Assembly: GCA_000934665.2 (NCBI GenBank)
Contig: KZ538104.1
Location: forward strand, 62,001 to 126,000
Reading direction: 5' to 3'
Source: Catajapyx aquilonaris
Lineage: Eukaryota
Length of the DNA stretch: 64,000 bases
Positions 21,201 through 49,320 of this stretch are shown one piece after another. The notes beneath the pieces are model-generated. The model did no database searches. It saw nothing but the letters and a program-made list of their open reading frames with translations, and was not told the DNA's origin. The translations under genes and the position numbers were made by a program. Position 1 is the first letter of the stretch, and the number at the start of each line of letters is the position of its first letter.

Positions 21201-22217
21201 ATTAAATTTTATCAGTTTCCTCCCTAATACAACGACGGATTAATTAAAAACTTAACTAGGCCCCCCGAGCGGAGATGAAATATCAAAAGCGGCAAAAGTA
21301 GCCCCATTGCAAAAGCTTACTGCGAATAACAAACGTTTATTCCTTTTGCCCCCCGACTGTTTATTTTCACAGAGCTGAAGGCACCTCATTAACAGGATTA
21401 TGTTGCATCTCGGCTTTTCCCAGATAAGAATACTTGTAACAAAAAATATATATATTACTAGAGCCTGTTGAATGATGCGAGACACAACATGGTTCGATGG
21501 CAGGCCTTTAGGCCACTAGTGTTACACGATTTAGGCGTGAAGTTAATTTGTTTATTGTCGAGAGGAGGGGGTCATTTTTGCTGGCAAATTAACGCAATTA
21601 GCTTGGGCCTAACAGCAATGCCGGATCCAATTGAGCCTTGTAACTACTTTTAGTTTACAATGCGAGATACACCGATTTTCATCTGATAGTTGACAATGTT
21701 ATCAACCATTTTATATTACAAGTTTATCAGGCGACGGACACTGATGGAACAATAATGGTTCAATTTGAAGAATTGTAAAAAAAAAAATTACAAGCAGCCA
21801 TGTTCAGCAGGCATATTAAATTATTCTAATTTCCTATAGGGAAAAATCACGTGCGCTTCGCGAAGTTTTTTGAGAAATTAGTCTAGGCCTGCACGTGCAG
21901 GATACACTGCCTCCATAACGACATTATATTTGCATATTTAGATATTTTTGTACTCATAATCGAATTGGCAAGCTTTCATTTACGATGTAATGAAATAATT
22001 TGTTTTTACAACGCCATTTTGGCAACATGGCGATGTAACGTTCGTTTCTCCAAACGGCATTGTTCTCCACCTTCCCATTTTTCACATTTGAATATTGCCG
22101 AAAAATCTGGCCAGTACTTACATTTGCCTTTTTAAAAAATTTGAACCGTTGGCTGGCAGAACGATGAATTACTTTCACTTTCCGACTATTGTGACACACC
22201 TGCGCCTAGTGCCTTAC

Positions 22218-23519
22218 CTGCAGATTGGAGACTGATGCAGGCACTTTGGTGAGTCTGTTCCCGCTGAGACTGAGGTCCTGCAGATTGGAGCAGTTCCTGA
22301 AGGCCTCCCGATGCACCTCCCCGATCTGGTTGTGGTCCAGGAAGATCTGGTTCAGCACGTAGAGTCCGTCCAGAAGAAAGGCGTCCACTACCACCAAGTT
22401 GTTGTAGGTGAGAGACAGGATGTGGAGGTTGCTCAGGGGCAAGAAGGTGCCGTCACCAATGCTGGATATCTGGTTGTGGTCCAGGTTCAGCACCTGCAGG
22501 CTGTACAGGTCCCTGAAGGAGTTGGCGTCCAGCTTGGTCAGCGAGTTGTAGGCCAGGTTCAGAATCACAAGCCGGATCAGTCCTTTGAACGTGTCCTTAT
22601 GGACCCAAGTGCTGGTCAACGCGTTTGTGGACAGGTCAAGCACCAACAGCTGGTCCATGTCCTCGAACAGTCCTGGAGCCAGCACGCTGATGGTGTTGTT
22701 CTGCAGGTAAATTTCTCGTAGCTCCCTGGAGCTGAGGAACAGCTCTGGAGGTAGAGCCACCAGCTGGTTGCTGGACAGGTTGAGCAGCCTGAGCGAGACC
22801 AGTCCGGACAGGGCCAGATCGCCCACCGTCTTGATCTCGTTATTCTGCAGGTACAGCTCCTGCAGCTTCTTCAACTGGACCAGCGAGTTGTCCTGGAGGC
22901 CCGGCAGCTCGTTTCTGGACAAATCCAGCCGGACCAGAGGCGGCTGGCAACTCGGACCGGCCTGGAAGCCCAAATCATGCGCGTCCTGCAGGTGGTTCTG
23001 GCTCAGGTTAAGAGTGACCAGATTGGACAGCGGACAGAGCAATCCGGCTGGAAGCGTGTAGATGTTATTCCGACTCATGTCCAGCCACTGCAGCTCCTTA
23101 AGTCCGGCCAAACAATCCGGCTCCAGCTCCATGGTCATGGCCGACCAGTCCGAGTTGTGCGTCCTGAGGCTGAGCCTCTTGAGATGGACCAGCCCTCCGA
23201 AGCTGCCCCAGGGCACGCTTCTGATCTTGCAAAAGTCCACATGCAGCTCCCGGAGGTTGACCAGCCTGGTGAAGCTCTGGTTGCCCAAGCTGCTCTCGAA
23301 GAAGAGGACGTCGCTGCATCGGAGGCTAAGCTTCCAAGCGTGGTCCACCTGGTACTGGCTGAAGTTGTAGAATTGAAAGTCTCCAGCCAGAGTCCTGAGA
23401 TGGCAACCCAAGGCCTGCTTCCCTTCCTCCGAGTCCAGCCTGGTCCAGAGGCAGTTGGGAGGAGGATCTTTGCTGGAGGACACCACTCGCAGCAGGAGGA
23501 AGAGCAACCAGAGGCCCAT
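22218..23519 (-). CDS. Tollo: Toll-like receptor (long Toll, Toll-8/Tollo-like), coding exon 1: signal peptide and N-terminal LRRs
   Basis: ATG at 23519 starts the hydrophobic signal peptide MGLWLLFLLLRVVSS. Many LxxLxLxxN repeats follow, including LRTHNSDWSAMTMEL typical of the Toll-6/7/8 group. The exon ends CAG|GTAAGG (phase-0 donor at 22217). Subfamily name is from motif recognition, not phylogeny. Confidence 0.9.
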
Positions 23520-23656
23520 CTTCCCCCGCCAAAACACTGGTCTCAACAACGCATCGCGGATACTTCACTTATTTGGAAATAACAACTAGAGAGACGAATA
23601 TAGCGCACACAACCGAACTGGGAGCTACACACGTGTCGTCTGTTGGAGCCGGCAGC

Positions 23657-28847: not shown

Positions 28848-28915
28848 TGACGTCACTAGAGCAGTTCCCAGCACACCAGTCGGAATGAGCCCGAATCAGA
28901 ATTCAAGATGGCGAC
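28848..28915 (+). promoter_or_regulatory. Conserved promoter cassette of ZNF unit 1 (CRE TGACGTCA, CAGTTCCC box, YY1/Pho-like CAAGATGGCG)
   Basis: Same cassette at 32724-32799, 35662-35730, 38462-38530, 41992-42060 and partially 47185-47240, always ahead of a non-coding exon and a short GT-AG intron. Confidence 0.65.
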
Positions 28916-29185
28916 TGTTCTATCCTGCATTGTTCTTGGTTCTTGGGAAGAATTATTTGGAGTGATTTCCGTCACCGACGGGGACATATTCGTCCCTAGT
29001 TGTACCGCCGCCGGTTTGCTGGGCAGGTCCTGAATCCATCTTGGTCCATCAGCAGGTCCATCAGCAGAGCATCTGTGTAAAGGAGAGTGTCGTGAGTGCA
29101 TGTGAGTAAAGAGAGAGCAATTTCAGTTTCATTTTCCAATAAAAATACTAATAACATATTTCTGATCTCAATAGGTCGTCTAACT

Positions 29186-30292
29186 ATGGAGGAAGGAGAC
29201 TCTTCCTTCGTCAAGGAGGAGGCTTGGAAGGTTGACGTGAAGCAAGAAGCGGAGATAGATGAAGTCGCCTTACCACTAGAGAACATTCCGACGGTGGATC
29301 AAGTGATTCAGGAGGTGAAGAAATGTGAGGAGGAAATGGTGGCGGCAATGCCCGATGTGACTGAAGGTGCGGACGATCCTCTCGGCATCAGTGTCTGTGA
29401 CAAGTTGAGGTATGAGAATACGTCGATGCCTTCAGGTGACAAATTTGTTGGACAGTCAGTGCAGGCTGATGTTAAAAAATTTAAGACGACTTATTTGTGT
29501 GAATTCTGTGGAGAGGCATGCAGTAGCTCCGGCAAGATGTGGAATCATGTGCGGACATTTCATGCTGAAGAAGAGCTGTTTACTTGCTCTTATTGCCAGA
29601 AGGTTTTTTGTACAAGCTACACCTTACGCAGTCATGTGAAGAGACATAATCCCAAAGAGAATGGGAACGTCACACTTGAAGCTAATTCAACCAACATGCC
29701 AATCTTGCCGCATATGACTCTAGGCAATAAGTTATCAGTAGTAAGGTTAGCAAAAACCAGTAATGTTATGATTTTGAATTGTGAATTTTGCAGAGCAGAA
29801 TTGTCCACATCCAGTGAATTAGAGGAACACATTAAGGCAGTTCATGTTGGTGACAAAAAATTAATATGCAAGCTCTGCCCGAGAGCATTTCGAAGCAATC
29901 AGGGTTTGAGTAGTCACATTAGGTGGCATGATCGAGACAGTGCTGCATATTTGGACAACTCAACTGAAGACAATAATTTGAACAAGTCCTGCAAAAAACT
30001 GTGTAAAGCTCACTATGACACCTGGGCTGTTAAGTGTGACTTCTGCCCAGCCTCATTGTCCCATCCAAGTAACTTATGGAAGCATGTGAGGTCATTTCAT
30101 AATGAACAGCCACTGTACAAATGCAAATATTGCCAAAAAGAATTTTGTGCACATTCGATCCTAAAGACTCACATGAAGAGGCATAATCCCAAGTTTGTGT
30201 GTTACAATGACTGTGGAGAATATTTTGACACAAGTGATGAATTGCTTGCACACATGAACGCTTCTCATGGTTGTGCTGTTGCGCCAGTGTGA
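29186..30292 (+). CDS. C2H2 zinc-finger protein, array copy 1 (acidic leader plus 7 fingers arranged 2+2+3)
   Basis: ATG at 29186 follows the acceptor at 29173-29174 (the ORF track's upstream 30 aa are intronic). Seven CxxC...HxxxH fingers, e.g. CEFCGEACSSSGKMWNHVRTFH and CKYCQKEFCAHSILKTHMKRH. Confidence 0.9.
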   Translation: MEEGDSSFVKEEAWKVDVKQEAEIDEVALPLENIPTVDQVIQEVKKCEEEMVAAMPDVTEGADDPLGISVCDKLRYENTSMPSGDKFVGQSVQADVKKFKTTYLCEFCGEACSSSGKMWNHVRTFHAEEELFTCSYCQKVFCTSYTLRSHVKRHNPKENGNVTLEANSTNMPILPHMTLGNKLSVVRLAKTSNVMILNCEFCRAELSTSSELEEHIKAVHVGDKKLICKLCPRAFRSNQGLSSHIRWHDRDSAAYLDNSTEDNNLNKSCKKLCKAHYDTWAVKCDFCPASLSHPSNLWKHVRSFHNEQPLYKCKYCQKEFCAHSILKTHMKRHNPKFVCYNDCGEYFDTSDELLAHMNASHGCAVAPV

Positions 30293-30520
30293 TGCATTTG
30301 TGAAGTATATTCTTTTTAGTGGTGACCAATTTCATACAGGTCATTCACGTGGTTTGTGTGGTCATATGGCACAGATGAAATATTTTTTACTTGCCATGTA
30401 TGTAGAACACTTGGCAAATGCACCATTTTTGACAAGTAAAGTTTGAATACTGATTTTGTTGAACTGCATTTTTGTGAATCCCTATGTTTCAAGTATAGCC
30501 TACATTTGTTTTTATTTCAG

Positions 30521-32273
30521 TACATACACACTCAATGACATTTTGACGTTATTGGAAGGCAAGGGAATACATGTGCAGGATGATAAGCAGATAGACGTGT
30601 ACATCCAGCCTCCAACTAATGCAAATGCAGATTTAACAGATGAGGACTCTGGTGATGAAGAGGCTTTCACTTTGGAGGACCTACCTGGATCACAGCTCTT
30701 AGAACCTGCTGAATTGCTGAATGAATTTCAAAATGATGACATCAATGAAGAGGAGGAAATGTGTACTGCTAATGAAAGGAGAGATCAACCTCCAAAGAAG
30801 GTACGCAAGAAAGAAAACAAGAAGACTTACGATTGGTGTCACCATCCCTTAAAATCTGATTTGATTGACTGGCCAGAAAACGTGAATGTTGAGAGTGAGT
30901 TGAGTCCCATGGAGTCATTTTTCCTATTCTTTGATGAGCACATAATTTCTTTCATAGTGGATAAAACCAATTGGTATGCTGTCCTGCATAATAGGGTAGG
31001 TGACGTTACTGCTAATGAACTCTATTGCTTTATTGGCATACTTTTATTGAGTGGATACGTCCAAGTACCACAAAGACGAATGTTCTGGGAAACCGTGTGT
31101 GATACTCGTAATGAGCTTGTCTCCGCATCCATTTCTAGGAATCGCTTTGAATTTATCCTGGCAAATATTCACGTTTGTCAAAATGACAAGCTGAATGAAG
31201 AAGACAAGTTTGCGAAGGTCCGCCCTCTGTATGACGCACTGAACTATAATTTCTTACGACATGCCCCATTTGAGGAAAACCATTCAATTGGCGAGTCAGT
31301 GGTGCCTTACTATGGTTGCCGTGTTCTGAAGCGATTAATTAGGGGAAAGGCCATAGGATATGGCTACAAAGTGTGGGTTGGTGCTACCTCGAAGGGCTAT
31401 GTAATTTGGAAGGATCCTTACCAATGTAAATCCACCACTGTAAACCCTGCTTATAACAATTTTGGTCTGGGTGCAAGTATTGTCCTGCAGTACTGTGACA
31501 CTTTGACCTCAGCTGCTGCACTGCCTTATCACTTGTTCTTTTACAACTTTTTTGGGAGCCTTCCTTTGTTGGAGGAACTGAAAAACAGACATATTAGGGC
31601 ATCGTGTACATTGAGCGAAAATTCCATTGCAGACTGCCCTTTGAAGGATAGTGCTGCTATGAAGAAAACTGACCCAGGCGCTTTTGATTTCAAAACTGAT
31701 TCAAAGGGGAACTTGATTGTCATGAAATGGAATGACCACAGTGTTGTCACAGCAGCATCTAATGCTATCGGAATTAGTCCATTCCATGAAATAACTCGTT
31801 ATTCTGAAAAGGAAAAGAAATTGGTGAAAATTCCCCAGCCCCACCTCATACATGAGTTGAACCAATATGCTGGTGGAGTTGAAAAGTATGACCAAAACAT
31901 GAGTTTATATCGTGTTACCATCAGAGGAAAGAAGTGGTATTACCCTCTGATAGTCGACTGCATTGAAAGTGCAGAACAAAATGCTTGGCACTTGCATTGC
32001 ATTAATGGGGGTAAGTTAGACTTCTTAACTTTCAGAAGAAGACTTGTTTGCAACTTGCTTGAAACCTTTGGGAAAGGTAGTGGTTCAAGACCCAGAAGGC
32101 CGCATAAAAACCAGCTAATAGATTCAAGATATGATCGTGTAGATCATTTAGTTGCTCCCCAAGAGAAACAAACCAGATGCAGGCAATGCCACATGAAATG
32201 CACAACACGATGCGTGAAATGTGACGTAGGACTTCACACTAGATGTTTCATAGGATTTCATACAAAACCATAA
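30521..32273 (+). CDS. piggyBac transposase-derived exon (PGBD2/PGBD3-like), intact ORF with substituted catalytic triad
   Basis: PGBD3-like N-terminus TLNDILTLLE..IQPPTNANADLTDEDSGDEE, ISRNRFEFIL, DKFAKVRPL, RGKKWYYPL and a C-terminal Cys-rich domain CRQC..CVKC..LH..CF..FH. Preceded by acceptor ttgtttttatttcAG (30519-30520); AATAAA at 32388. No TTAA-flanked TIRs recognised. Confidence 0.9.
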
Positions 32274-32519
32274 ATTTCAGGAATTGTAATAATAATTGTG
32301 ATTGTTGTAAGTTATTGCAAGAGCTGGTTATTGTAGTGGGAAACATATGTTCATATAATTATTTTCATGCTCTATGTTATTTTGATGAATAAAGTCAATG
32401 GACACTGTGATTCACTTATCAGTGCCTTATTGCTCCATGAATTCTGGCTCCGTATCATTTTCAGCAATACTTGTGTGTGTCAAAGTTCAGCCTCCCACCC
32501 AAGAAGTGGTAGTTGACCA

Positions 32520-32595
32520 TTATTATTATCATTATCATTATCATCATCATCATCATTATCATCATCATCGCTGACTACCCCTTATAGGGAAATGC

Positions 32596-32664
<69 letters not shown>

Positions 32665-32712
32665 CATTATTATTATTACCCTATTATTGTTATTGTTGTT
32701 ATCATCATCATC
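32520..32712. repeat. Compound (TTA/TCA/TGA)n microsatellite before ZNF unit 2
   Basis: Mixed trinucleotide runs. Confidence 0.9.
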
Positions 32713-33062
32713 AGGGCAACATGTGACGTCACCGTGACAGTTCCCTGCACACCAGTCGGAATGAGCCCGTCAAGCGTCAACAGAATTCAAGATGGCGACT
32801 CTTCTTGGCTGGTTTGTTCGTTGTTCCTGAGAAGTTGAGATTTCCTTGCTGATTTCCAACACCGAGGGAGGACAGATTCGTCTCTGGTTGTATCGCAGGA
32901 GAGCAGAAGGGAAGGCCCCTGAATCCATCTGGGTCCAACAGCATCTGTGGAAAGGAGGGTGGGCACTGCAGGTGAGTAGAGAGAGAGAGAGAGAAATATC
33001 AGCCCATCATTCAATCTGATTTGCTAATCAAAAGGCTAATCAAAACTTTCCCATCTCTCTAG

Positions 33063-34028
33063 ATGTCCACTATGAAGGAAGAGGACGCTACCGTCATCAA
33101 GGAGGAGGCTTGGGAGGTGGAAGTGAAGCAAGAAGTGGAGACAGATGAAGTCCTGTTACCACCAGAGAACATTCCGATGGTGGAGGTGAAGGAATGTGAG
33201 GAGGAAATGGTGGTGGCAATGCCTGTTGTGACTGAAGGTGCTGACGATCCCCTTGGCATCACTTCGTGTGACAAGAGGAAGTATGAGAATGTGTCAATGC
33301 CTTCAGGTGACAAACTAGTCACCCAGTCAGTGCAGAGTGGTGTATGCGAATTCTGTGGAAAGGCGTACCGTAACTCGAGGGACTTGTGGAATCATGTGCG
33401 GACAGTTCATGCTGAAGAAAAGCTGTATACTTGCTCTTATTGCCATGAAGTTTTTTGTACAAGCTACGCCTTATGCAATCATGTGAAGAGACATAAACCC
33501 AAAGATAGTGGGTACGTCACACTTGAAGCTCCTTCAGCCAACGTGCCAGTATTGCGCAACATGACTGAAGGTAGTAAGATTCCAGTAGTAAGGTTAGCAA
33601 AAACAACCAATGAAATGCCTTTCAAGTGTGGATTTTGCAGAACAAAATTTTCCACCTCCAGTGATTTAGAGGAACACATTAAGGCAGATCATGTTGGTGA
33701 TAATAAATTAACATGCACAGTATGCCAGAGAACATTTCAAAACTTGCAGGGTTTAAGCAGTCACATTAAGGCAATTCATGGTGAGAAATTAAAATGCAAG
33801 GTCTGCCAGAGAGAATTTAGAAATATTCAGGCTTTGTGGAGTCACATTAAGGCAGTTCATGGTGAGAAATTAAAATGCAAGGTCTGCCAGAGAGAATTTA
33901 GAAATATTCAGGATTTGACCAGTCACGTTATGTGGCATGATCGAGAGAGGGCTGCACTTTTGGACAACTCAACTGAAGCCGAGTCAAACGAGTCCTGCAA
34001 AAAGATGTGCAAGGAGCATGCAACATAA
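33063..34028 (+). CDS. C2H2 zinc-finger protein, copy 2 (6 fingers, C-terminally truncated)
   Basis: 5'UTR intron 32972-33062. Internal 81-bp finger duplication (33780/33861). A frameshift gives TAA at 34026; the decayed last fingers remain visible at 34030-34270. Confidence 0.75.
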   Translation: MSTMKEEDATVIKEEAWEVEVKQEVETDEVLLPPENIPMVEVKECEEEMVVAMPVVTEGADDPLGITSCDKRKYENVSMPSGDKLVTQSVQSGVCEFCGKAYRNSRDLWNHVRTVHAEEKLYTCSYCHEVFCTSYALCNHVKRHKPKDSGYVTLEAPSANVPVLRNMTEGSKIPVVRLAKTTNEMPFKCGFCRTKFSTSSDLEEHIKADHVGDNKLTCTVCQRTFQNLQGLSSHIKAIHGEKLKCKVCQREFRNIQALWSHIKAVHGEKLKCKVCQREFRNIQDLTSHVMWHDRERAALLDNSTEAESNESCKKMCKEHAT

Positions 34029-35149
34029 AGGCAAGCAAATTTGACTGATGCCAAGCCTCAATCTCCCATCCAAGTAACTTATGGAAGCATGTGAGCATAG
34101 TGGACAGCCATTGTATCAATGCAAACATTCACAAAAACAATTTTGTGCACATTCCATCCTAAAGACTCGCATCAAGTTTGTGTGTTCTGACTGGGGAGAA
34201 CATTTTGACAAAAGTGAAGAATTGATGCAACATTTGGATGTTTCTCATGGTTCAGCTGTTTCACCAGTGTGGTGCATTTGTGAAGTTTTTTGTTTTTTTG
34301 TTCATACTATTAATATTAACAAGACATAATTTAGGTTGCATAAATGAAGAACGGTTCTTCATAGTTTGTTTTTGCCAACATTCATGTCACTTTTGTTCTC
34401 TTGACTAGTATGTTGTGATACTTCCTCCCAATCTATTACGCTGTAAGTGCCCCTTTGCGTACAGTTTATTCAACTTGTGGTATATGCACCTGAATCAGGT
34501 GATGACCAATTTCATTCAAAAGATTTGTGTACTTGTACAGCAAAGATTATTAAAGACAGTTTATCCGCAGGTGGAGTGTAAATCAGACAGTAGCTTTGCA
34601 ATGACCCCTTTACTACCCGCTAGGGTTTGAGGGGGAGGACATCTTCGACTATCTTACTCTAACATATCATTTTCTTAATCACATTAGCAAAGAAATTGTA
34701 CGAATTATTATAAATGTATACTTGCAAAGGATCTACAAATAAACAAAACATGTCATAACTGGGAACAGTTGAGGGCATAATTTTAAGAAATATTTCTACT
34801 TGGTGTGCCATAAATGGGACAGCTGTGTACATGATATGGGCCAATGTAAAGTTTTCCTGCACATTACAATTTGGGCAAGTCATCTCTGAGTCTAATGTAA
34901 GTGAACCAGTTTTAGTGTAAATACGGAGCTATTGATTTCTCAGATTCACCAACAATCTAGTAAGATAATAAGGGCATATTTAACGCTAAATACTGTTCCT
35001 GGTTAAAATATTTTTTCACTGCGGAGTAGTCACCATATGTGTGGGATACAGAAAGCCTTTGCAAATCAATGTCTTGGCAGTGGTCTTGGTAGTGGAGAAT
35101 TAAAGAATGAGTATATCTTGGCAAATTTTCAATCACAAGATCGATTGTT

Positions 35150-35549
35150 CTGCAGTTGTACTGTATGGTGACATGTTGACCTCAGATGCTGCACTGCCTT
35201 ATCACATGTTCTTTGATAACTTTTTTGGAGCCTTCCTTTGTTATTGGAGGAACTTGGCAACAAAAAATATTAGGGCATTGTGTACATTGCGTGAAAATTA
35301 CATTGCAAGAGTGCCCTTTGAAATATGAACGGATAGGGCTGCTATGAAGAAAACTGAGCTATAGGCACTTTTGATTTCAGAACTGATTCATAAAGATACT
35401 TGATTGCCATCATGATATATAATTACCACGGCGTTGTCACAGCAGCATCTAATGCCATTGGAATATTCCCACTCCATAACGTAACTTTTTTTTTTCTGAA
35501 AAGGAAAAGAAATATGCGAAAATTCCCCAGCTCCACCACATAAAGGAGC
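35150..35549 (+). pseudogene. Decayed fragment of the piggyBac-derived ORF
   Basis: Collinear with about 31480-31858 (LTSDAALPYHMFFDNFF, gctgctatgaagaaaactga, gttgtcacagcagcatctaatgc), with frameshifts and stops; ends at the (TTA)n tract. Confidence 0.88.

Positions 35550-35633
<84 letters not shown>
35550..35633. repeat. (TTA)n microsatellite before ZNF unit 3
   Basis: Pure TTA run. Confidence 0.97.
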
Positions 35634-35964
35634 TACGGTATTATGCAGGTGTGCATGATTGTGACGTCACCGTGACAGTTCCCGGCACACCAGTCGGAAT
35701 GGGCCCGTCGCCAGAATTCAAGATGGCGACTCTTCTTGGCTGGTTTGTTCCTGCGACGATTTGGGTTGAGGAGATTTCCAGCAACGAGGGGGGACAGCTT
35801 CGTCCCTGGTTGCATCGCAGGAGAGCAGAAGGGAAGGCCCCTGAAGCCATCCGTGGAAAGGAGGGTGGGCACTGCCGGTGAGTAGAGAGAGAGAAATATC
35901 AGCCCATCATTTTCATTATAATTTTCCAATCAAAAGGCTAATCAAAACTTTCCCATCTCTCTAG

Positions 35965-37101
35965 ATGTCCACTATGAAGGAAGAGGACGCTACCGTCATC
36001 AAGGAGGAGGCTTGGGAGGTGGAAGTGAAGCAAGAAGTGGAGACAGATGAAGTCCCCTTACCACCAGAGAACATTCCGATGGTGGATCAAGTGATTCTGG
36101 AAGTGAAGCAATGCGATGAAGAAATGATTCAGGAGGTGAAGAAATGTGAAGAGGAAATGGTGGTGGCAATGCCTGATGTGACTGAAGGTGTGGATGATCC
36201 CCTTGGCATCACTTTGTGTGACAACTTGAGGGTTGAGAGTTCGTCGATGCCTTCAGGTGACAAACTAGTCACACGGTCAGTGCAGAGAGGTGTTAAGAAA
36301 CGTAAGACGACTCAGTTATGTGAATTTTGTGGAGTGTGGTACAGTACCTCGACCAACCTGTGGAATCATGTGCGGACATTTCATACTGGAGAAGGCCTGT
36401 TTACTTGCCCTTATTGCCATAAAGTTTGTAGTATGATCTCTAGCTTTTACAGACATGTGAAGAGTCATAATCCAACTAGTAATGGGTATGTCACTATTGA
36501 AGTTAATTCAACTGATGTGGCAATCTTGCAGCGTATGACTGAAGACAGTAAGATACCAGTAGTATGGGTTGCTAAAACAAGCAATGCAATGACTTTCAAG
36601 TGTGCATTTTGCAACACACAATTTTCCACTTCCAGTGAATTAGAAGAACACTTTCAGGCAGTTCATGTTGGCGAGAAGAAATATAAATGCAAGCTGTGCT
36701 GGAGAGTATTCCGAAAGAGATACACTTTGAGTTCTCATTTGAAGTGGCATTCTAATCTAGAGATGGTGGTGCATTTGAGAAATGCTGATTCAAACACGTC
36801 CTGCAAAAAAATGCATAAAGAGCACTACAACAAAATGGCAAGTAAATGCGATTTCTGCCAAGCCTCAGTCACCCATTCAAAGTACTTAATGAGACACGTG
36901 AGGAAATTTCATAGTGACCAGCCATTATTCAAATGCAGATATTGCCAAAAAGAATTTAGCTCAAGTTTCGTACGAAACACTCACATGAAGAGACATAATC
37001 CAAAGGGAATGTGTTCTAACTGTGGAAAACAATTTGACAAAAGTGATGAATTGCTTGCACACATGGGTGTTTCTCACGGTTCAGCTGTTTCACCATTGTG
37101 A
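35965..37101 (+). CDS. C2H2 zinc-finger protein, copy 3 (7 fingers)
   Basis: 5'UTR intron 35878-35964; intact 378-aa ORF paralogous to copy 1. Confidence 0.9.
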   Translation: MSTMKEEDATVIKEEAWEVEVKQEVETDEVPLPPENIPMVDQVILEVKQCDEEMIQEVKKCEEEMVVAMPDVTEGVDDPLGITLCDNLRVESSSMPSGDKLVTRSVQRGVKKRKTTQLCEFCGVWYSTSTNLWNHVRTFHTGEGLFTCPYCHKVCSMISSFYRHVKSHNPTSNGYVTIEVNSTDVAILQRMTEDSKIPVVWVAKTSNAMTFKCAFCNTQFSTSSELEEHFQAVHVGEKKYKCKLCWRVFRKRYTLSSHLKWHSNLEMVVHLRNADSNTSCKKMHKEHYNKMASKCDFCQASVTHSKYLMRHVRKFHSDQPLFKCRYCQKEFSSSFVRNTHMKRHNPKGMCSNCGKQFDKSDELLAHMGVSHGSAVSPL

Positions 37102-37139
37102 TGCACTTGTAAAGTATTTTTTGTTCATTTCATACCAAT

Positions 37140-37485
37140 AATAATTGTGGGTTGTGCTTATCTGACCCCTTGGGTACGAGGACTTTGACCTTTATTTATT
37201 TTTTATTGATCGGTGTTACATTTTTTGGTGCCTATTCATTTGAATCACCCAGGCCCACGGGCAGGATGACAGGAGGGTATGTGCAATGTGCAGTGCAAAG
37301 TTTCCAAGATGGTACATAATTTGTGAACTCCCCTGGGTGGATATATCTTGCGGAAATTCCACCCGAGATGAAGCCAGAGACGACCCAACTTTACACGAGA
37401 TGAAGGGGGTGTCCCCGGCTGGGATCAAACCTGGGACCTTAACACCCGTGGGCGCATACATTACCGCAGTGTCACTTCGCCTCCC
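37140..37485 (-). mobile_element. tRNA-derived SINE with 15-bp target-site duplication
   Basis: Flanked by tcatttcataccaat at 37125-37139 and 37486-37500. Minus-strand head GGGAGGCGAAG..GGTAA..GGTTTGATCCC (B-box-like). Confidence 0.75.
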
Positions 37486-37540
37486 TCATTTCATACCAAT
37501 GAGCAATGACACAGACAGGTGTACATTAATTAACAATACC

Positions 37541-37896
37541 TTTTTTTAAAAAAATTTGCTACCCCATGCTAGAGCCATTGGCTCTCTTAGGGGGGTAGGT
37601 CAGGGTAGGACACCACTATATTTTCTGTATTAGTTTTCCATTTTTCTTTGAACTCCGGTGCAGGGAATCAAGATCATTGGGTAAGGATAGGGATTTTTGG
37701 GGACGGAACATGGGTGCAAGTAGGTCTGTAAAGGGTCATGTGCTGTTCCCCAGGAGGTTAGGTTGCCAGACACCTCCAAGGGGCGGATCAGAGACCCACT
37801 GACGCAGGGGAAAGGGAACTCCCAGGCGGGGATCGAACCTGGGACCTTCCACTCAGCAAGCCGAGGCGTTACCATCTCGGCAACCTCACCTCCCCG
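37541..37896 (-). mobile_element. Second related tRNA-derived SINE
   Basis: Minus-strand head GGGGAGGTGAGG-TTGCCGAGATGG (A box)..GGTTCGATCCC (B box), A-rich tail, imperfect TSD attaacaatac/atttacaagac; absent from paralogous 3' flanks. Confidence 0.7.
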
Positions 37897-38796
37897 ATTT
37901 ACAAGACATCATTTTAGGTTGCATAAAGAAAAATGGTTCTCTGTGGTTTGTTTATGCCAAGATTCATCTCACTTTTGTTCTTTTGACTAGTATGTGCTGA
38001 TACTTCCTCTCAACCTATGAATCTGTGAGTGCCCACCTTTGCTGTGTTTATTGAACTTGTGTTAAATATAAACCTGAATTTCATTAACAAGGTATGTGTA
38101 CTCATATGGCACAGATTATTATTAGAGACAGTTTACCCTCAGTTTGCTTATCAGGAATGATGACACCTTCTTTATTGCTCCATGATTTCTGGCCCCTATC
38201 ATATATTGCAATACTTGTGTTTGTCTCATTTCAGCCTCCAAGATGTGACCATTTTGCTTCTCTTAACATAATGTTGCTTTCTTCAGCATATTAGCATTAG
38301 CTACAAAAGGCTCTCAGGTAATGATAAAATTTTAAAAAGCTTCATGAAATTTCCACTGTCATCTTTCGTCATATTAAAAACATCGCGGCATTGTTAGGAT
38401 TGTTGTTCCAAACAAAATGATTGAAAATGTGCATTGTTGCTGTAATTTACAGGTGTGCAAGTGACGTCACAGCGACAGTTCCCGGCACACCAGTCGGAAT
38501 GGGCCCGGCAGCAGAATTCAAGATGGCGACCGTTCTTTCCTGACTTGGTTCCTTCGAAAAAATTATTTGGGAGTGATTTCCAGTGTCGACGGGGACAGAT
38601 TCGTCTCTGGTTGCATCGCCGGAGAGCAGAAGGGAAGGCCCCCCCTGAATCCACCGGGAGGTTCATAAGCATCTGTGGAAAGGAGGGTGGGCACTGCAGG
38701 TGAGTAGCAAGAGAAAAATTCCAGCCCATTACTTTTATTATAATTTTCCACTCAAAATGCTAATCTAATCTTTACGAACCCTGTAGGCCGTCCACT

Positions 38797-39894
38797 ATGG
38801 AGGAAGGAGACGCCAACTTCGTCAAGGAGGAGACTTGGAAGGTTGAAGTGAAGCAAGAATTGGAGATTGAAGAACCGTCCATACTGCCGGAGGACATTCC
38901 GACGGTGGATGAAGTGATTCAGGAGGTGAAGGAATGTGAAGAGGAAATGTTGGTGGCAATGCCCGATGGGACTGAAGGTGCGGACGATCCCCTTGGCATC
39001 ACTTCGTGTGACAAGCGGAGGTATGAGAATGTGCCTTCAAGTGGCACATTAGTCGGACAGTCCGTGTCGCAGAGAGGTAGTAAGAAATGTAAGATGACTA
39101 ATTTGTGTGAATTCTGTGGAGAGGTATGCAGCAACTCGACCAAGTTGTGGAATCATGTGCAGACATTTCATACTGGAGAAGAGCTGTTTACGTGCCCTTA
39201 TTGCAAGACAGTTTTTAGTATGATATCTAACTTATGCAATCATATGAAGAGACATAATTCCAATGGGAGTAGACTTGTCACTCTTGAAGTTAATTCAACC
39301 GATGTGCCAATCTTGCAGCGTATGACTGAAGGCAGTAATATACCGGTGGTATGGGTTGCAAAAACAAGCAACGCAATGACTTTCAAGTGCGGATTTTGTG
39401 AAACAAAATTTTTCACATCCAGGGAATTAGAGGAACACATTAAGGCAGATCACGTTACTGGTAAGAAGAAATACAAATGCAAGCTGTGCCGGAGAACATT
39501 TCCAACCAGTCAGGGTTTGAATAGTCACGTTAGGTGGCATTGTGATCAGGAGAGGGCTGCACGTGTGGACAACTCAACTGAAGCTGATAAGTCCTGCAAA
39601 GAGATGCGTAAAGCGCATTTCAAATCAAGGGCAGTTAAATGTGACTTCTGCTCAGCCTCAGCCTGCAATCCAAGTACCTTAAGGTTGCATGTGATGAAAT
39701 TTCATAGTGAACAGCCATTGTACAAATGCAAATATTGCCAAAAAGAATTTGGTTCTCGTTCCATCCTAAACAATCACATAAAGCGGCATAATCCCAAGTT
39801 TATGTGCTCTGACTGTGGTGAACATTTTGACAAAAGTGAAGAATTGCTTGCACACATGGATGTTTCTCACGGTGCTGCTCTTATGCCAGTGTGA
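38797..39894 (+). CDS. C2H2 zinc-finger protein, copy 4 (7 fingers)
   Basis: 5'UTR intron 38700-38786; intact 365-aa ORF. Confidence 0.9.
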   Translation: MEEGDANFVKEETWKVEVKQELEIEEPSILPEDIPTVDEVIQEVKECEEEMLVAMPDGTEGADDPLGITSCDKRRYENVPSSGTLVGQSVSQRGSKKCKMTNLCEFCGEVCSNSTKLWNHVQTFHTGEELFTCPYCKTVFSMISNLCNHMKRHNSNGSRLVTLEVNSTDVPILQRMTEGSNIPVVWVAKTSNAMTFKCGFCETKFFTSRELEEHIKADHVTGKKKYKCKLCRRTFPTSQGLNSHVRWHCDQERAARVDNSTEADKSCKEMRKAHFKSRAVKCDFCSASACNPSTLRLHVMKFHSEQPLYKCKYCQKEFGSRSILNNHIKRHNPKFMCSDCGEHFDKSEELLAHMDVSHGAALMPV

Positions 39895-41460
39895 TGCGTT
39901 TGTAAGGGGTTTTTTTTCCATACCATTGTGCATTAATATATATAAGACATAATTTAGGGTGCATAAACAGTTCTTCTTAGTTTGTTTCTGCCAACATTCA
40001 TCTCACTTTCGTTCTTTTGACTGATATGTTCTCATACTTCATGTCAATGAATGGGAGAGGGGGGTTGAAAGGAGCACCATTATAATTATAATGGTTCACT
40101 AAATGTGCTGAAAAAATCAGAAATATTTAATGCACATGGAGTATGTGCCTCACTTTGCATTAAACTTGAAGATAGGGTATAGGATACATTTTGGCCCTCA
40201 TATATTTTTCACTGTGTGACTCATCGACCTGTGTCATGACAGTTGCTGATTGTTTTCTGCTATTGTTGTCTCATTTGTAAGTTTTGTAGAAGTAGACACT
40301 CCTGTATAATTGGGGCCAATATGAATGCACTACCTTTAGGCAATACTCCACGACCATATAAAAGTAAAACAGGCGGGATTAGGCCCAACCTTTTGGACAT
40401 TGTGGTAGCTATTGAGGGTGTGTGAGGGACAATCTGTAAGTTCAGTGGCGTAAGAATGTAACATTGTTGTCCTTTTCCACCCCGCAGCTGGAGTTGAAAG
40501 GAGTGGACAACTTGGTCTCAAATATTATTATTTTTTTGTCAAAATGGTGATTAATTAAAGAACCTGGTTTGTCGCATTGAAAGATGAAGGACCATGTTTA
40601 AGACGAGTATAATAAATGATCAATCAAAGTTAATCAGAAATTACATGGAAAGGTTGTCAAAATCCCCTTTTTCATCCCCGCTCTCCCTTGCTATGAGAGC
40701 ACCTTTGCGTACAGTTTATTCCAGTTAATTCAACTTGTGGTATATGAATGTGAATTAAGTGATGACCATTATTTTTGCAGTTCAGGTCTCTGCTTCAAAT
40801 CTAATGCTTGTCTTTGAGTCCGTTTATTCAACAGCCAGTGTCACTGACAGGAAATGTGACTTGGTTACAGTCAATCTAATGCGAATATTGTAAAATACCA
40901 TCATTAACATGAGCGCTTCAGGTACCCAATTTGACCCATATGAAAGTCAAATTCTAATGATTTAATTCAGCAGCACTCAGCAAATTATGGACGAAAAATT
41001 CCTTAATTACATATTGGTCATCATTCCTTCAAGTGTCATAACTCAAGGGGTCAAATTTTCGCCCCATGGCTAGATACTGCTAACTTAGCAGTAACCATCT
41101 CCAGCACTCGTACTTCTAAGTTAGCAGCACGGTTAGCAGTTACTACGTATCAGTGGGACGAAAAATTCCACCCAAGGTGTTTTCATCGTTAGTAATTGAG
41201 TTTTACTTGTTGTATTTTGTGAAGTGAACTTGATGGCTGAATGGGATCAATAATGAAATCTCAAAGATGTTCACTTTCAAAATAATTTTTTTAAAATATA
41301 TTCAGGATGTTTGTTTTTAAAAAATAGGTTGTATATCTAGTGTTTCCACTAATATAACGGCTGAGATCATTGACTAATATTTCACTTTTTTTAAAGTTAA
41401 TTCTTAAAATACCGTATCCACAGCACTTTACACACAACAGAGCTACTAAAGTGAGTAAAG
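39895..41460 (+). repeat. 3' flank of copy 4, duplicated as 43399-46270 behind copy 5
   Basis: Long collinear identity, e.g. gaatgtaacattgttgtcctttt..aaaatcccctttttcatccccgctctccc at 40454-40689 and 45102-45336. Confidence 0.9.
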
Positions 41461-41924
41461 TCACCTGACCTTTCAGAACTAACATGTAAACCTAACGAAC
41501 AAACCTGACAGGATACAGAATGAAACCAAGTATTAGCACAATCTGTAATATAATGCAAGTAATATACTTCAAATGCAATGATAGCAGCTGTAGTGGAAGA
41601 AGTCCCCTCAGCATGGCTGGCCCTGGGTGGGTGCAGGGCGGTGCAGGGCCTACGTCAAAAACCAAATGCGGGGCCTATTCTCAACTAGGGAATTTCTGTA
41701 TACAGCACCAAGAGCTCTTGACAGCACGAATTATATGTATCACATACCAATAATTTGGTCAGCTGAAAGCGTGACATAGCCTGCCGCAGGCAACAATTTT
41801 GTGTGTTCAAGGTCACACAGGCTAAGGTGAATGCTGTGACCCCACTGAGAGAGAATCATCCATTATTTACAGCATATTATTACTATTACTTTATTAGTAT
41901 TATTGTTGTTATTTTATAATTGTC

Positions 41925-41955
<31 letters not shown>

Positions 41956-42294
41956 CGGTATTATTGGGTATTATGCAGGTGTGCATGATTATGACGTCAC
42001 CGTGACAGTTCCCGGCACACCAGTCGGAATGGGCCCGTCGCCAGAATTCAAGATGGCGACTCTTCTTGGCTGGTTTGTTCCTGCGACGATTTGAGTTGAG
42101 GAGATTTCCAGCGACGAGGGGGGACAGCTTCGTCCCTGGTTGCATCGCAGGAGAGCAGAAGGGAAGGCCCCTGAAGCCATCCGTGGAAAGGAGGGTGGGC
42201 ACTGCCGGTGAGTAGAGAGAGAGAGAAATATCAGCCCATCATTCAATCTGATTTTCCAATCAAAAGACTAATCAAAACTTTCCCATCTCTCTAG

Positions 42295-43398
42295 ATGTCC
42301 ACTATGAAGGAAGAGGACGCTACCGTCATCAAGGAGGAGGCTTGGGAGGTTGAAGTGAAGCAAGAAGTGGAGACAGATGAAGTCCCGTTACCACCAGAGA
42401 ACATTCCGATGGTGGATCAAGTGATTCTGGAAGTGAAGCAATGCGATGAAGAAATGATTCAGGAGGTGAAGAAATGTGAAGAGGAAATGGTGGTGGCAAT
42501 GCCTGATGTGACTGAAGGTGTGGATGATCCCCTTGGCATCACTTTGTGTGACAACTTGAGGTATGAGAATGTGTCGATGCCTTCAGATGACAAACTAGTC
42601 ACACGGTCAGTGCAGAGAAGTGTTAAGAAGTGTAAGACAACTCAGCTATGTGAATTTTGTGGAGAGGTATGCAGTAACTGGACCAAGTTGTGGAATCATG
42701 TGCGGACATTTCATACTGGAGAAGATCTGTTTACTTGCCCTTATTGCCAGAAAGTTTGTAGTGCGATCTATAAATTTTGCAAGCATGTTAAGACTCATAA
42801 TGGTAATGAGTATGTCACTCTTGAAGCTAATTCAACTGATGTGGCAATCTTGCAGCGTATGACTGAAGACAGTAAGATACCAGTAGTATGGGTTGCAAAA
42901 ACAAGCAGAGGAATGACTTTCAAGTGTACATTTTGCGAAACAAAATTTTCCACTTCCAGTGAATTAGAGGAACACTTTCAGGCAGTTCATGTTGGCGAGA
43001 GGAAATATAAATGCAAGCAGTGCCAGAGAACATTTCCAAACAGGCAGGGTTTGAGCAATCACATGAAGTGGCATTGTCGAGGGAGTGATGCATGTTCAGA
43101 CAACTCTACTGAAGCCAATTCAAACGACACAAATGAAGTTAAATGCGACTTCTGCCCAGCCACAATCTGCCGTCCAAGTAACTTGTGGCAGCATGTGAGG
43201 AAATTTCATAGTGAACAGCCATTGCACAAATGCAAATATTGCCAAAAAGAATTTAGTGCACGGTCCATCCTAAACAACCATATACAGCGGCACAATCCCA
43301 AGTTTATGTGCTCTGACTGTGGTGAACATTTTGACAAAAGTGAAGAATTACTTGCACACATGGATGTTTCTCACGGTTCGGCTGTTATGCCAGTGTGA
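42295..43398 (+). CDS. C2H2 zinc-finger protein, copy 5 (7 fingers)
   Basis: Degenerate (TTA)n at about 41875-41955, promoter cassette, intron 42208-42294, intact 367-aa ORF. Confidence 0.9.
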   Translation: MSTMKEEDATVIKEEAWEVEVKQEVETDEVPLPPENIPMVDQVILEVKQCDEEMIQEVKKCEEEMVVAMPDVTEGVDDPLGITLCDNLRYENVSMPSDDKLVTRSVQRSVKKCKTTQLCEFCGEVCSNWTKLWNHVRTFHTGEDLFTCPYCQKVCSAIYKFCKHVKTHNGNEYVTLEANSTDVAILQRMTEDSKIPVVWVAKTSRGMTFKCTFCETKFSTSSELEEHFQAVHVGERKYKCKQCQRTFPNRQGLSNHMKWHCRGSDACSDNSTEANSNDTNEVKCDFCPATICRPSNLWQHVRKFHSEQPLHKCKYCQKEFSARSILNNHIQRHNPKFMCSDCGEHFDKSEELLAHMDVSHGSAVMPV

Positions 43399-43654
43399 TG
43401 CATATTATGAGTTTTTAAAATTATTTCATAACATTGTGCATTGATTTGTAAACAAGTCCTCATTTAGGGTGCATAAACAGTTCTTCGTAGTTTGTTTCTG
43501 CCAACATTCATCTCACTTTTGTTCTTTTGACTAATATGTTCTCATACTTCCTGACAATGAAGGGAAGAGTGGGGTTGAAATGGGCACCATTATATATTAT
43601 AATGGTTCTCTAAATGTGCTGAAAAAATTAGAAATATTTACAGCACATGGAGTA

Positions 43655-44519
43655 CGAGGGCTGTTCAAAAAGAAACCGAACTTTTTCTATACAGACTCTA
43701 TTGCTCAATTTGCCCTCTACTGGCGATAGACAGTTTTTAATTTTTTCTTCCATTGTTAGAATGCTTCCTGGTACGCACTTTCTGTGATGGCGTTCAATGC
43801 TCTTGTCGCATTGACCTGAATATCCTATGGTTAGGAAATGACGTCATTTCAAATTGGTTTTATGTTTTGAATATAGAAAAATGTCTGCTGGGGCTAAGTC
43901 CAGAGAATAGGGTAGATTGGCACAACAAATGTCTGATGTTTTGCCAGATAATGATGACGAGGAGCAATGTGTGAGCCGGCGCATTGCCATGGGCCAATAT
44001 CCAAGTCTGGCCTTCCTACAATTTAGGTCTTTCCTAGGCACAGCAGCTCTCAAACGCACTAAAACATTCTGGTACAACACTGTTTGTCTGCCAATCTGAC
44101 ATGGTCCAAATTATTCATAAAGAAAAATCCTTTTCCAATCCAAAAACACAACCAACATCACCTTGACCTTTGACCGACTGATCTGTGCCTCTTTTGGTCG
44201 AGGAGACCCTTCCCAAGTATGCTTGGTAAAGCAATTGAAATGTCTCTGTAAATTCTTTACCAATTTTTTAGCAAAATTTCACACAAACACTTTGTTTTTC
44301 AAGCTCTCTCATTTTCACTTTCTCACTAATTCGACAAACAGCTCGTCCAAGTGCTCACTTAAGTATATGTATCTCAATGACCTAGGGTCATATGGGAACG
44401 TGGCAAATGGCAATTTGTTGTCAAGACATGTCACTAGGTGCTGTCAGTAGCCTCAATATGCTCTTTGTGCTGGTTGACGCCTTATTTAAAAAGTTTGGTT
44501 TCTTTTTGAACAGCCCTCG
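43655..44519 (-). mobile_element. Internally deleted mariner (Tc1/mariner) element
   Basis: TIRs cgagggctgttcaaaaagaaacc / ggtttctttttgaacagccctcg with TA TSDs. Minus-strand remnants HGNAPAH (cf. HDNA) and PYSLDLAPADIFL (cf. YSPDLAP). Empty site atggagTAtgtgcc at about 40136-40149. Confidence 0.92.
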
Positions 44520-44778
44520 TATGTGCCTCACTTTGCATGAAACTTGAAGATAGGGGTGTATGATACATGATAAAGATGTCATTGTGCAGAGAAGATTTTG
44601 CTGCTCATAAGTTTTTCACTGTGAATCATCGACCTGTGTTATCTGCCGTTGTCGTCTCATTTGTAAGTTTATATAGACATTATCATTATGTATCCACTAC
44701 CTTCAGGCAATATGCCACGAGTTTATAAAAGTAAAACAGGCCGGACTAGACCCAATCTTTTGGACATTGCGGCAGCTA

Positions 44779-45057
44779 CTCTCCGATTCACATAAGAGTG
44801 AACCTTTTTGGATATCCATATGCCCGAGGGGTTGGTGAGCCACTGCAAAATTAGTCCCCAGTATCTCTAGCTTTCTCGAAGAAACAGTGCTGGTACATGT
44901 AATTCGAATGTCTAATTATCCTGGGCAACCCATGCGGTCGCTGCAGCGCTACACAAACTGCACATTTTGTTAGGAGGAGCGGTAGACCCGTCATGGTGGG
45001 CACTACTTTCGGGCGTATGTATATCCAAAACGGTTCACTCTTATGTGAATCGGAGAA
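44779..45057. mobile_element. MITE with about 50-bp TIRs and TA TSD
   Basis: ctctccgattcacataagagtgaacc / ggttcactcttatgtgaatcggagaa; paralogous empty site gtagcTAttgagggtg near 40410. Confidence 0.88.
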
Positions 45058-45865: not shown

Positions 45866-45991
45866 GGGCCAGTTTCACAGAGCTCGGTATATGATAAAAC
45901 CAGGTTTCTTTAGGAAAATCCATACAAATATGTAGGGATTTTCCCAAAGAAACCTGGTTTTATCATGTACCGAGCTCAGTGAAACCAGCTC
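45866..45991. mobile_element. Hairpin MITE, PIF/Harbinger-like (TTA TSD)
   Basis: Almost fully palindromic 126 bp starting GGGCC and flanked by TTA; empty site catcgTTAgtaattgag near 41189. Confidence 0.85.

Positions 45992-46272: not shown

Positions 46273-46275
<3 letters not shown>

Positions 46276-46357
<82 letters not shown>
46276..46357. repeat. (TTA)n microsatellite before ZNF unit 6
   Basis: Pure TTA run. Confidence 0.97.
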
Positions 46358-46358
<1 letters not shown>

Positions 46359-49246: not shown

Positions 49247-49320
49247 TAGATCATTTAGTTGCTGTCCCCAAGAGAAACAAACCAGATTCAGCCAATGACA
49301 CGTGAAATGTCACACAGCAA
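49247..49320 (+). pseudogene. Short remnant of the piggyBac C-terminal Cys-rich region
   Basis: gatcatttagttgctgtccccaagagaaacaaaccagattcagccaatgacacgtgaaatg matches 32142-32200. Confidence 0.8.

What the first reader, a model, noticed from the sequence alone, without database searches (positions are those of the whole stretch)
31290..32273. piggyBac transposase with all three catalytic aspartates replaced but the ORF and Cys-rich domain intact
Seen: SIGES (GGC 31290; family SIDES), LFFYNFF (TAC 31542; family FFDNFF) and GGVEKYDQ (GAA 31881; family GGVD). The frame of about 580 codons is unbroken, the terminal Zn-binding domain is complete and no TIRs were recognised. Inference: domestication with selective loss of catalysis, leaving a DNA-binding or dominant-negative protein that could recognise piggyBac ends.
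Basis: partly seen in the sequence, partly recalled or inferred. Interest (0 to 1): 0.72.

Follow-up and report, generated by a model that had tools for sequence, protein, structure and literature searches.

The report
Tamed, catalytically dead piggyBac terminal exon
An arthropod keeps a single, transcribed, end-less copy of a piggyBac jumping-gene enzyme that has lost its cutting residues but kept its DNA-binding parts, probably as a spliced tail of the neighbouring zinc-finger gene, a new example of a kind of capture already known from primates and bats.

Summary
Observation confirmed. The T. ni D268/D346/D447 positions read G/Y/E (31290, 31542, 31881), the frame is open for 583 codons, the Cys-rich domain is intact and no TIR flanks it. 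It is the only intact copy found; its nearest paralogue is a dead full element with TTAA+TIRs and DDD. Selection is shown within the genome: a sister fragment next door took 7 frameshifts in 380 bp against 0 in 1749 here, and branch pN/pS is 0.37. Losses at conserved sites fall in the catalytic/insertion domains (15 of 62, against 2 of 67 elsewhere). Exact contigs of one RNA-like run cover 1342 ORF bases. Hundreds of cognate TIR ends remain as possible targets. The splice junction, DNA binding, orthologues and function were not shown. Triad loss and exon trapping are known (PGBD2, CSB-PGBD3, PgmL, KRABINER): a new member of a known kind.

The parts
28874..29101 (+). Promoter-proximal block and probable non-coding exon 1 of zinc-finger gene 1 (start approximate; donor at 29102); the nearest same-strand promoter-like block upstream of the transposase frame
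   Evidence: Block repeated before each ZnF unit; the homologous exon1-exon2 splice of a paralogue is seen in run X1; no donor here gives an ATG-started frame into the transposase
29186..30292 (+). Zinc-finger gene 1 coding exon: acidic N-terminal region, then C2H2 fingers; probable host gene
   Evidence: exact X1 contig 29579-30088
29410..29415 (+). Candidate phase-2 donor: would fuse 74 acidic host residues to the transposase (658 aa), replacing the finger array. Inferred only
   Evidence: one of five phase-2 GT sites scoring at least 4 of 7 on a crude consensus count
29746..29751 (+). Alternative candidate phase-2 donor (best crude score, 5 of 7): would keep 186 host residues including the first fingers (770 aa). 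Inferred only
30399..32400 (+). Transposon-derived block, trimmed at both ends (no TIRs, no terminal palindromes) and lacking about 351 nt of the parental 5' region that hold the native start candidates
   Evidence: Alignments to dead full element L002
30501..30520 (+). 3' splice acceptor inherited from the element (13 of 17 pyrimidines, AG at 30519-30520, phase 2)
   Evidence: AG at the same place in L002 and in the distant element L092; Periplaneta isoforms join host exons at the same residue
30521..32273 (+). PGBD2/PGBD3-branch piggyBac transposase exon, 583 codons, unbroken
31290..31292 (+). D268 equivalent, now Gly
31320..31358 (+). Omega-loop region with several replaced conserved residues (H267R, Q271R, F272L, P277A, R279G in ORF numbering; 272 and 279 align to T. 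ni Y283 and K290, hairpin/target contacts)
   Evidence: roles from PMC7351741 passages
31542..31544 (+). D346 equivalent, now Tyr; still Asp in the sister fragment at 35144-35548, so lost after that duplication
31881..31883 (+). D447 equivalent, now Glu; the T. ni Y439 equivalent (31857) is Leu; D450 equivalent (31890) kept
32178..32261 (+). C-terminal cysteine-rich zinc domain, all conserved Cys/His kept
32388..32393 (+). AATAAA poly(A) signal, homologous to that of the parental element
35144..35548 (+). Decayed sister fragment of the same frame behind ZnF unit 2 (9 indels, 7 frameshifting); neutral control
   Evidence: 5 derived residues shared with the ORF against 0 and 1 for the other groupings
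38081..38247 (+). Empty site in ZnF unit 3: host DNA that flanks the element on the left (30341-30387) and right (32427-32495) lies contiguous
49247..49314 (+). 68-bp fragment of the CRD-proximal coding region behind the last ZnF unit

Best explanation
A PGBD2/3-branch piggyBac element entered the 3' flank of the first gene of a tandem C2H2 zinc-finger cluster in sense orientation (shown: empty site in unit 3). It lost both ends and its own start but kept its splice acceptor, frame and poly(A) signal (shown). The frame is translated and selected (shown by internal controls). With no ATG before codon 80, translation most likely comes from splicing of a phase-2 donor in zinc-finger gene 1 to the acceptor at 30521, giving an acidic host N-terminus fused to the transposase (inferred; donor not identified). 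Catalytic and hairpin/target residues were lost stepwise while the dimerisation/DNA-binding domain and CRD were kept (shown), so the protein cannot cut and most likely acts as a sequence-specific DNA-binding regulator at the TIR/palindrome ends of its own family, as CSB-PGBD3 does at MER85 (inferred). Rough odds: domesticated 0.9; spliced to a host exon given that 0.7; binds cognate ends given that 0.6. The confidence below is for domestication plus host splicing.
For: Single intact copy: 7 DNA matches in G000, the only other full-length one the broken L002 at 79%; other open piggyBac frames at most 32% identical. Frame: 0 frameshifts in 1749 bp against 7 in 380 bp of the sister fragment, P 6e-6; for the 238 nt before the first ATG P 0.03. 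ORF vs L002 dN/dS 0.41 (95% 0.32-0.54; 565 codons), codons 1-79 0.50 (0.24-0.95). With outgroup L097, 243 codons: ORF branch 21 syn/31 nonsyn, pN/pS 0.37, P 6e-4; dead L002 branch 0.70, not significant. Sites of at least 90% conservation lost: 15 of 62 catalytic+insertion, 2 of 67 elsewhere, Fisher P 4e-4. Acceptor conserved in the family at the same phase; Periplaneta relative (74%) annotated with host exons joined at that residue. Exact X1 contigs cover 30531-30878, 31097-31348, 31441-32182, and X1 holds a spliced ZnF junction absent from the window. Targets: 346 exact TTAA+TIR ends, 61 TIR+palindrome left ends, 0 in reversed controls. Model folds as piggyBac.
Against: No contig joins a host exon to 30521. 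RNA cover could be the 3' UTR of ZnF gene 1, since no AATAAA/ATTAAA lies between its stop and the acceptor; X1's type is not on record and it may be the assembly's own sample. The candidate donors are mediocre on a crude score and the 29410 site is simply a conserved R-Y-E codon run in the paralogues. No orthologue found, so Bouallegue's cross-species criterion is unmet for want of data. Relaxation of the catalytic domain is uneven: codons 253-330 give pN/pS 0.24 (7 syn/6 nonsyn) but 110 codons of the later catalytic/insertion part give 0.95 (3/11). Private changes overall (13 of 59 at highly conserved sites; 129 of 568 sites are such) are as many as a neutral spread would give. The 346 ends mix subfamilies; a 42%-identical element shares the TIR. 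The outgroup is near saturation at silent sites. In humans, MER85 binding did not correlate with regulation of nearby genes (PMC3459987 passages).
Confidence: 0.6

Rival explanations
1. Domesticated stand-alone product: translated from the internal ATG at 30759 (504 aa) or a near-cognate start at about 30474, on a read-through or cryptic-promoter transcript, with no host fusion.
For: ATG at 30759 is in frame and shared with L002; the frame is open 25 codons upstream of the acceptor; no junction seen.
Against: The 79 codons before that ATG stay open (P 0.03) with dN/dS 0.50 and 0 of 13 conserved N-terminal sites lost; acceptor is family-conserved and used in the Periplaneta annotation; downstream cistrons are poorly translated in animals (general knowledge).
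Confidence: 0.14
2. Dominant-negative inhibitor or non-catalytic subunit: it was kept to poison or assist an active piggyBac transposase by heterodimerising or by occupying TIRs (PgmL-like).
For: Dimerisation domain and CRD kept; Paramecium PgmL1, 2, 3, 5 carry no conserved D and partner PiggyMac (PMC6143343 passages); the family was active when the copy was captured.
Against: Best-scoring non-autonomous copies differ by only 0.5-2%, younger than the capture, so mobility was not shut off; no close DDD-intact frame found in the assembly (lower-bound search).
Confidence: 0.1
3. Selected protein whose function no longer involves cognate transposon ends (scaffold or new targets, PGBD1-like).
For: Omega-loop and TIR-proximal minor-groove region altered; PGBD1 no longer recognises piggyBac-like inverted repeats (bioRxiv 2021.05.19.444448, abstract start only).
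Against: CRD wholly conserved and only 2 of 44 conserved DDBD sites changed; divergence from the parental family is modest.
Confidence: 0.1
4. Neutral relic: a decaying copy inside a zinc-finger 3' UTR whose frame is open by chance.
For: Many radical substitutions; overall share of changes at conserved sites matches a neutral spread; pN/pS 0.95 in one 110-codon stretch; no orthologue.
Against: 0 against about 32 expected frameshifts; branch pN/pS 0.37; domain-biased losses; 14 substitutions against 32 in the sister fragment over the same codons, P 0.011.
Confidence: 0.06

Closest known systems
CSB-PGBD3 (primates; PMC2268245 and PMC3459987, passages read)
   Same: piggyBac of the same branch acting as acceptor + ORF + poly(A) terminal exon; acidic host N-terminus; triad damaged while dead paralogues keep DDD; CRD kept; large family of non-autonomous elements with TIR and internal palindrome.
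   Different: PGBD3 is DND and keeps its TIRs and its own ATG; here all three positions are changed, both ends and the native start are gone, the host is a C2H2 cluster gene, the element lies behind the host stop codon, and the fusion and binding are not demonstrated.
Mammalian PGBD2 and PGBD1 (PMC5381638 parts 2-5)
   Same: TIR-less single-exon transposase with upstream host exons; PGBD2 triad GDG shares the D268G change; about 40% identical; CRD kept in PGBD2.
   Different: Independent origin (separate clade); the second Asp is also lost here; PGBD1/2 have cross-species orthology and Ka/Ks data.
Periplaneta americana PGBD3-like XP_069699423/4
   Same: 74% identical over the full length; host acidic exons annotated at the same junction; second Asp lost (N) and the Y439-equivalent changed.
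   Different: Keeps D268 and D447 equivalents; its host exon shows no similarity to the window's ZnF protein; window, L002 and Periplaneta form an unresolved trio; orthology against independent capture is open.
KRAB-transposase fusions, e.g. KRABINER (bioRxiv 2020.05.07.082677, passages)
   Same: Transposase captured by a zinc-finger gene through a pre-existing acceptor, the transposase taking the place of the DNA-binding part.
   Different: Tetrapods, KRAB domain, TIR-specific repression shown; here an arthropod, an uncharacterised acidic region, nothing shown functionally.
Paramecium PgmL1, 2, 3, 5 (PMC6143343, passages)
   Same: Domesticated piggyBac proteins with no catalytic Asp left.
   Different: They serve an active partner in programmed DNA elimination; no such partner or process is evident here.

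Membership tests
piggyBac superfamily transposase | DDE_Tnp_1_7 core and piggyBac fold | tested here: met
   Pfam E 4e-72; PDB sequence hits are only piggyBat and T. ni PB; Foldseek top three are the same
piggyBac superfamily transposase | C-terminal cysteine-rich domain | tested here: met
   14 of 14 conserved positions kept
Active piggyBac-like element (PBLE) | DDD triad | tested here: not met
   G/Y/E
Active piggyBac-like element (PBLE) | Two TIRs with TTAA duplication | tested here: not met
   No parental TIR within 2 mismatches beside the ORF; block ends at about 30399 and 32400
Domesticated PGBD gene (criteria of PMC5381638) | Single copy | tested here: met
   One intact copy among 7 DNA matches; search counts are lower bounds and the assembly is fragmented
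Domesticated PGBD gene (criteria of PMC5381638) | Ka/Ks showing selection | tested here: met
   Paralogue-based only: 0.41 pairwise, 0.37 on the branch, frameshift test P 6e-6
Domesticated PGBD gene (criteria of PMC5381638) | Orthologous position in different species | not testable with these tools
   No related genome is held; no protein hit closer than 74%; Periplaneta synteny could not be read
Host-transposase fusion by exon trap (CSB-PGBD3 type) | Acceptor before and poly(A) signal after the ORF, inside a host transcription unit, same strand | tested here: met
Host-transposase fusion by exon trap (CSB-PGBD3 type) | Spliced in-frame fusion transcript | tested here: inconclusive
   One low-depth contig set; cover starts 10 nt inside the exon, no joint; five candidate phase-2 donors
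Host-transposase fusion by exon trap (CSB-PGBD3 type) | Binding to cognate non-autonomous element ends | not testable with these tools
   Candidate sites exist; binding needs EMSA or ChIP
Vertebrate PGBD2 or PGBD3 orthologue | Groups with the mammalian genes | tested here: not met
   Groups with L002, Periplaneta and P0003 (SH-aLRT 99-100), apart from three PGBD2 rows in a quick 36-row tree; human PGBD3 was not among the rows

The most novel reading that the evidence does not exclude
Invertebrate counterpart of KRAB-transposase fusions, arising repeatedly: one horizontally spread piggyBac lineage was captured independently by acidic-domain zinc-finger-type genes in two distant arthropods (this genome and Periplaneta), each time swapping the finger array for a transposase DNA-binding module and losing the second catalytic Asp by a different mutation, which gives a new transcription factor wired to some hundreds of dispersed element ends. 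Here the steps (capture, local duplication, later loss of D346) can be ordered from neighbouring fossils.
Probability: 0.3. Interest if true: 0.62.

Novelty: new member of a known kind. Interest (0 to 1): 0.4.

Why it matters
Well-supported piggyBac domestications are described mainly from vertebrates and ciliates; in the survey read here the two arthropod PGBD3-like relatives were judged not domesticated (PMC5381638 part 5), and six full-text searches (listings and abstract starts only) showed no report of a zinc-finger-cluster piggyBac fusion in an arthropod. The locus comes with its dead parent, an empty site, a neutral sister fragment and candidate target sites, so the exon-trap route to a new DNA-binding regulator is directly testable. 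The loss of the triad itself is not surprising.

Tried and rejected
Processed (retro)copy origin: the block starts inside the 5' UTR, lacks a 351-nt stretch that can be read as GT..AG and ends just after AATAAA, but L002 and 17 of the 19 family rows printed carry a stop six codons after the upstream ATG in that frame (the other two have indels there or lack the ATG), so such a splice would not give the natural mRNA; kept at about 0.2 against TTAA insertion plus trimming (a TTAA lies at the homologous empty site of unit 2, 34550-34553). Direct splice of exon 1 to the acceptor: no ATG-started frame from 3 donors. End of an X1 contig at 29410 as a sign of donor use: rejected, it is a paralogue's contig and two paralogues diverge at that base. 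No RNA holder listed; parts without X1 cover are no evidence. Synteny with Periplaneta through the neighbouring Toll gene: best hits only about 50% in millipede, beetles and cockroaches alike, so no orthologue could be fixed; this suggests, weakly, that the host is not a close cockroach relative. Longer fused forms: 2 distant hits, no zinc-finger fusion, weak evidence. First metagenome scan found nothing; the second gave 18 loci, one usable as outgroup. The careful tree did not finish; the quick tree leaves the trio open. Informative sites: window+Periplaneta 8, window+L002 11, L002+Periplaneta 8. No complex prediction was run. Earlier scan notes near this place or like this sequence: none. 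Supplements of the cited papers were not read and may list further arthropod PGBD-like genes.

Full report
Observation. The frame 30447-32273 (+) is open for 608 codons and has no ATG before 30759. It matches the piggyBac core model over its whole length, and its only PDB sequence hits are piggyBat and T. ni piggyBac, whose alignments place G, Y and E on D268, D346 and D447. Among 101 aligned sequences (99 of the 120 listed hits, those of at least 520 aa, plus the window and its dead paralogue) the window alone has all three replaced; 30 have the PGBD2-type G-D-x pattern and the Periplaneta protein is D-N-D. The CRD is complete. An AlphaFold model (pLDDT 71, 12-row alignment) matches piggyBac structures first; its omega loop (265-279) is low-confidence.

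Copies and parent. A DNA search of the genome gave 7 matches: the locus, one full-length paralogue (L002, 79%), three pieces within the window and two short hits. L002 is a complete dead element of 3.1 kb with TTAA, 12-bp TIRs, internal palindromes, DDD, one stop and three frameshifts. A protein search gave 59 matches; the open frames I examined (10 loci) are at most 32% identical and show D at every triad position they cover. The ends of the family are abundant: 346 exact TTAA+TIR ends and 61 left ends with TIR plus palindrome, 0 in reversed controls. They mix subfamilies, since a 42%-identical element shares the TIR. The best-scoring copies include a group 0.5-2% apart (19 distinct ends per side examined, median 9-12%), and none of the fetched ones carries transposase coding sequence.

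Context. The frame lies behind the first gene of a tandem cluster of six intact C2H2 zinc-finger frames and one broken one, each preceded by the same promoter-like block; a Toll-like gene on the other strand lies upstream. In unit 3 the host DNA that flanks the element on both sides is contiguous, which marks the empty site. The transposon-derived block runs from about 30399 to 32400. It lacks about 390 nt of the left end, about 320 nt of the right end and 351 nt of the 5' region that hold the parent's candidate start codons. What remains is acceptor (AG 30519-30520, phase 2), frame and the element's own AATAAA at 32388. The same phase-2 acceptor stands in L002 and in a 49%-identical element from a metagenome. 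The closest protein, Periplaneta PGBD3-like (74%), is annotated in two isoforms with acidic host exons joined at this residue; that host part is not similar to the window's zinc-finger protein.

Selection. No orthologue was available, so I used internal controls. The fragment at 35144-35548 is a sister of the ORF (5 shared derived residues in 113 codons, against 0 and 1 for the alternatives) and still has Asp at the D346 position, so that loss came after the duplication. It took 9 indels, 7 frameshifting, in 380 bp; the ORF has none in 1749 bp (P 6e-6), nor in the 238 nt before its first ATG (P 0.03). Pairwise dN/dS to L002 is 0.41 (0.32-0.54). With L097 as outgroup over 243 codons the ORF branch gives pN/pS 0.37 (P 6e-4) and the dead copy 0.70 (not significant); the outgroup is close to saturation at silent sites. 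Against 68 DDD relatives the ORF departs at 15 of 62 highly conserved catalytic/insertion sites and 2 of 67 elsewhere (P 4e-4; at the 80% threshold 15 of 79 against 5 of 96, P 0.007) (domain limits mapped by me from PMC7351741). The losses include equivalents of T. ni Y283, K290 and Y439, which contact the hairpin and target. Against a simple picture: the overall share of private changes at conserved sites (13 of 59) equals a neutral spread; codons 253-330 still show pN/pS 0.24 on 13 changes, while 110 later codons show 0.95 on 14. The fold seems constrained and the transposition chemistry released.

Expression. No RNA run was listed; one run of unrecorded kind held 40% of the words. Laid on 28850-32500, 10 contigs fitted, 5 at 99% or more; three listed ones cover 1342 ORF bases without a difference, beginning 10 nt inside the predicted exon, and one covers part of the zinc-finger exon. 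A paralogue contig carries an exon1-exon2 junction that is absent from the window, so the run is RNA-like. No contig bridges a host donor and the acceptor. Because no canonical poly(A) hexamer lies between the zinc-finger stop and the acceptor, the cover could also be read-through 3' UTR; translation rests on the selection tests.

Mechanism. Shown: insertion behind zinc-finger gene 1, trimming to acceptor-frame-poly(A), selection on the frame including its ATG-less start, targeted loss of catalytic residues, retention of DDBD and CRD. Inferred: splicing from a phase-2 donor inside the zinc-finger exon (five candidates; 29410 gives 74 acidic residues, 29746 gives 186 with the first fingers; exon-1 donors give no started frame), and binding of the product to the TIR/palindrome ends, by analogy with the T. 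ni CRD on its palindromic repeat and CSB-PGBD3 on MER85. A pure repressor role is less likely because cognate ends moved after the capture.

Comparison and novelty. Triad loss in domesticated piggyBacs is documented: PGBD2 GDG, PGBD3 DND (PMC5381638 parts 2-5 of 8; PMC2268245 passages), and four PgmLs with no Asp (PMC6143343 passages). The need for the aspartates is from PMC2533014 (abstract). Exon-trap capture, often by zinc-finger genes, is documented in vertebrates. It works like CSB-PGBD3 or a KRAB-transposase fusion; it is not an active element and not an orthologue of PGBD2; it meets two of three PGBD criteria, the third untestable. Whether the Periplaneta gene is an orthologue or a parallel capture is open: the tree is unresolved, three derived residues near 482-493 are shared with it, yet the host exons are unrelated and the neighbouring Toll protein is no closer to cockroach Tolls than to those of other arthropods. 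Unchecked notes of this scan report other start-less or end-less piggyBac units in the same genome; I did not test them.

Verdict. Real, selected, catalytically dead piggyBac gene, most likely an exon-trap fusion: new member of a known kind, interest 0.40.

Noticed in passing
window 29186-48555: Young tandem cluster of six intact acidic-N-terminus C2H2 frames plus a broken one (about 46395-47146); each unit is preceded by a conserved promoter-like block with an AAGATGGCG motif (YY1/Pho-like, recalled) and a short 5' UTR intron; units 3 and 5 are near-identical in the N-terminal part.
   Followed up: partly
window 8330-10924 and 22206-23564 (-): Long Toll-like receptor apparently split by an intron of about 11 kb, only about 50% identical to its best hits in any arthropod group.
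   Followed up: partly
L002 = G000:C4246, element at L002 634-3735: Complete dead parental piggyBac with TTAA, 12-bp TIRs and three copies of a 16-20 bp palindrome; hairpin-like repeats in its 5' region.
   Followed up: yes
L039-L081: Large family of non-autonomous elements (examples about 0.9-2 kb) sharing the TIR, some only 0.5-2% apart, with no matching autonomous transposase found in the assembly.
   Followed up: partly
L031 = G000:C5146: Another open piggyBac frame (542 aa) with D at all three triad positions, CRD present, first Met at residue 86 and an acceptor-like start; possibly a further start-less captured exon.
   Followed up: no
L018 = G000:C1960: Open 596-aa piggyBac frame with DDD and CRD, 26% identical; a different family, possibly intact.
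   Followed up: no
window 49247-49314: An X1 contig that fits 32140-32200 only in part, with a 2-nt insertion like that of this fragment, suggests the fragment behind the last zinc-finger unit is transcribed.
   Followed up: no
window 51348-51803 (-): Fragment with Psq HTH and Tc5 DNA-binding domains (pogo/Tigger-like transposase remnant).
   Followed up: no
P0102, P0103, P0105, P0109, P0111, P0112: Six unnamed proteins with the PGBD2-type GDG triad, probably mammalian PGBD2 fragments from sequencing runs.
   Followed up: no
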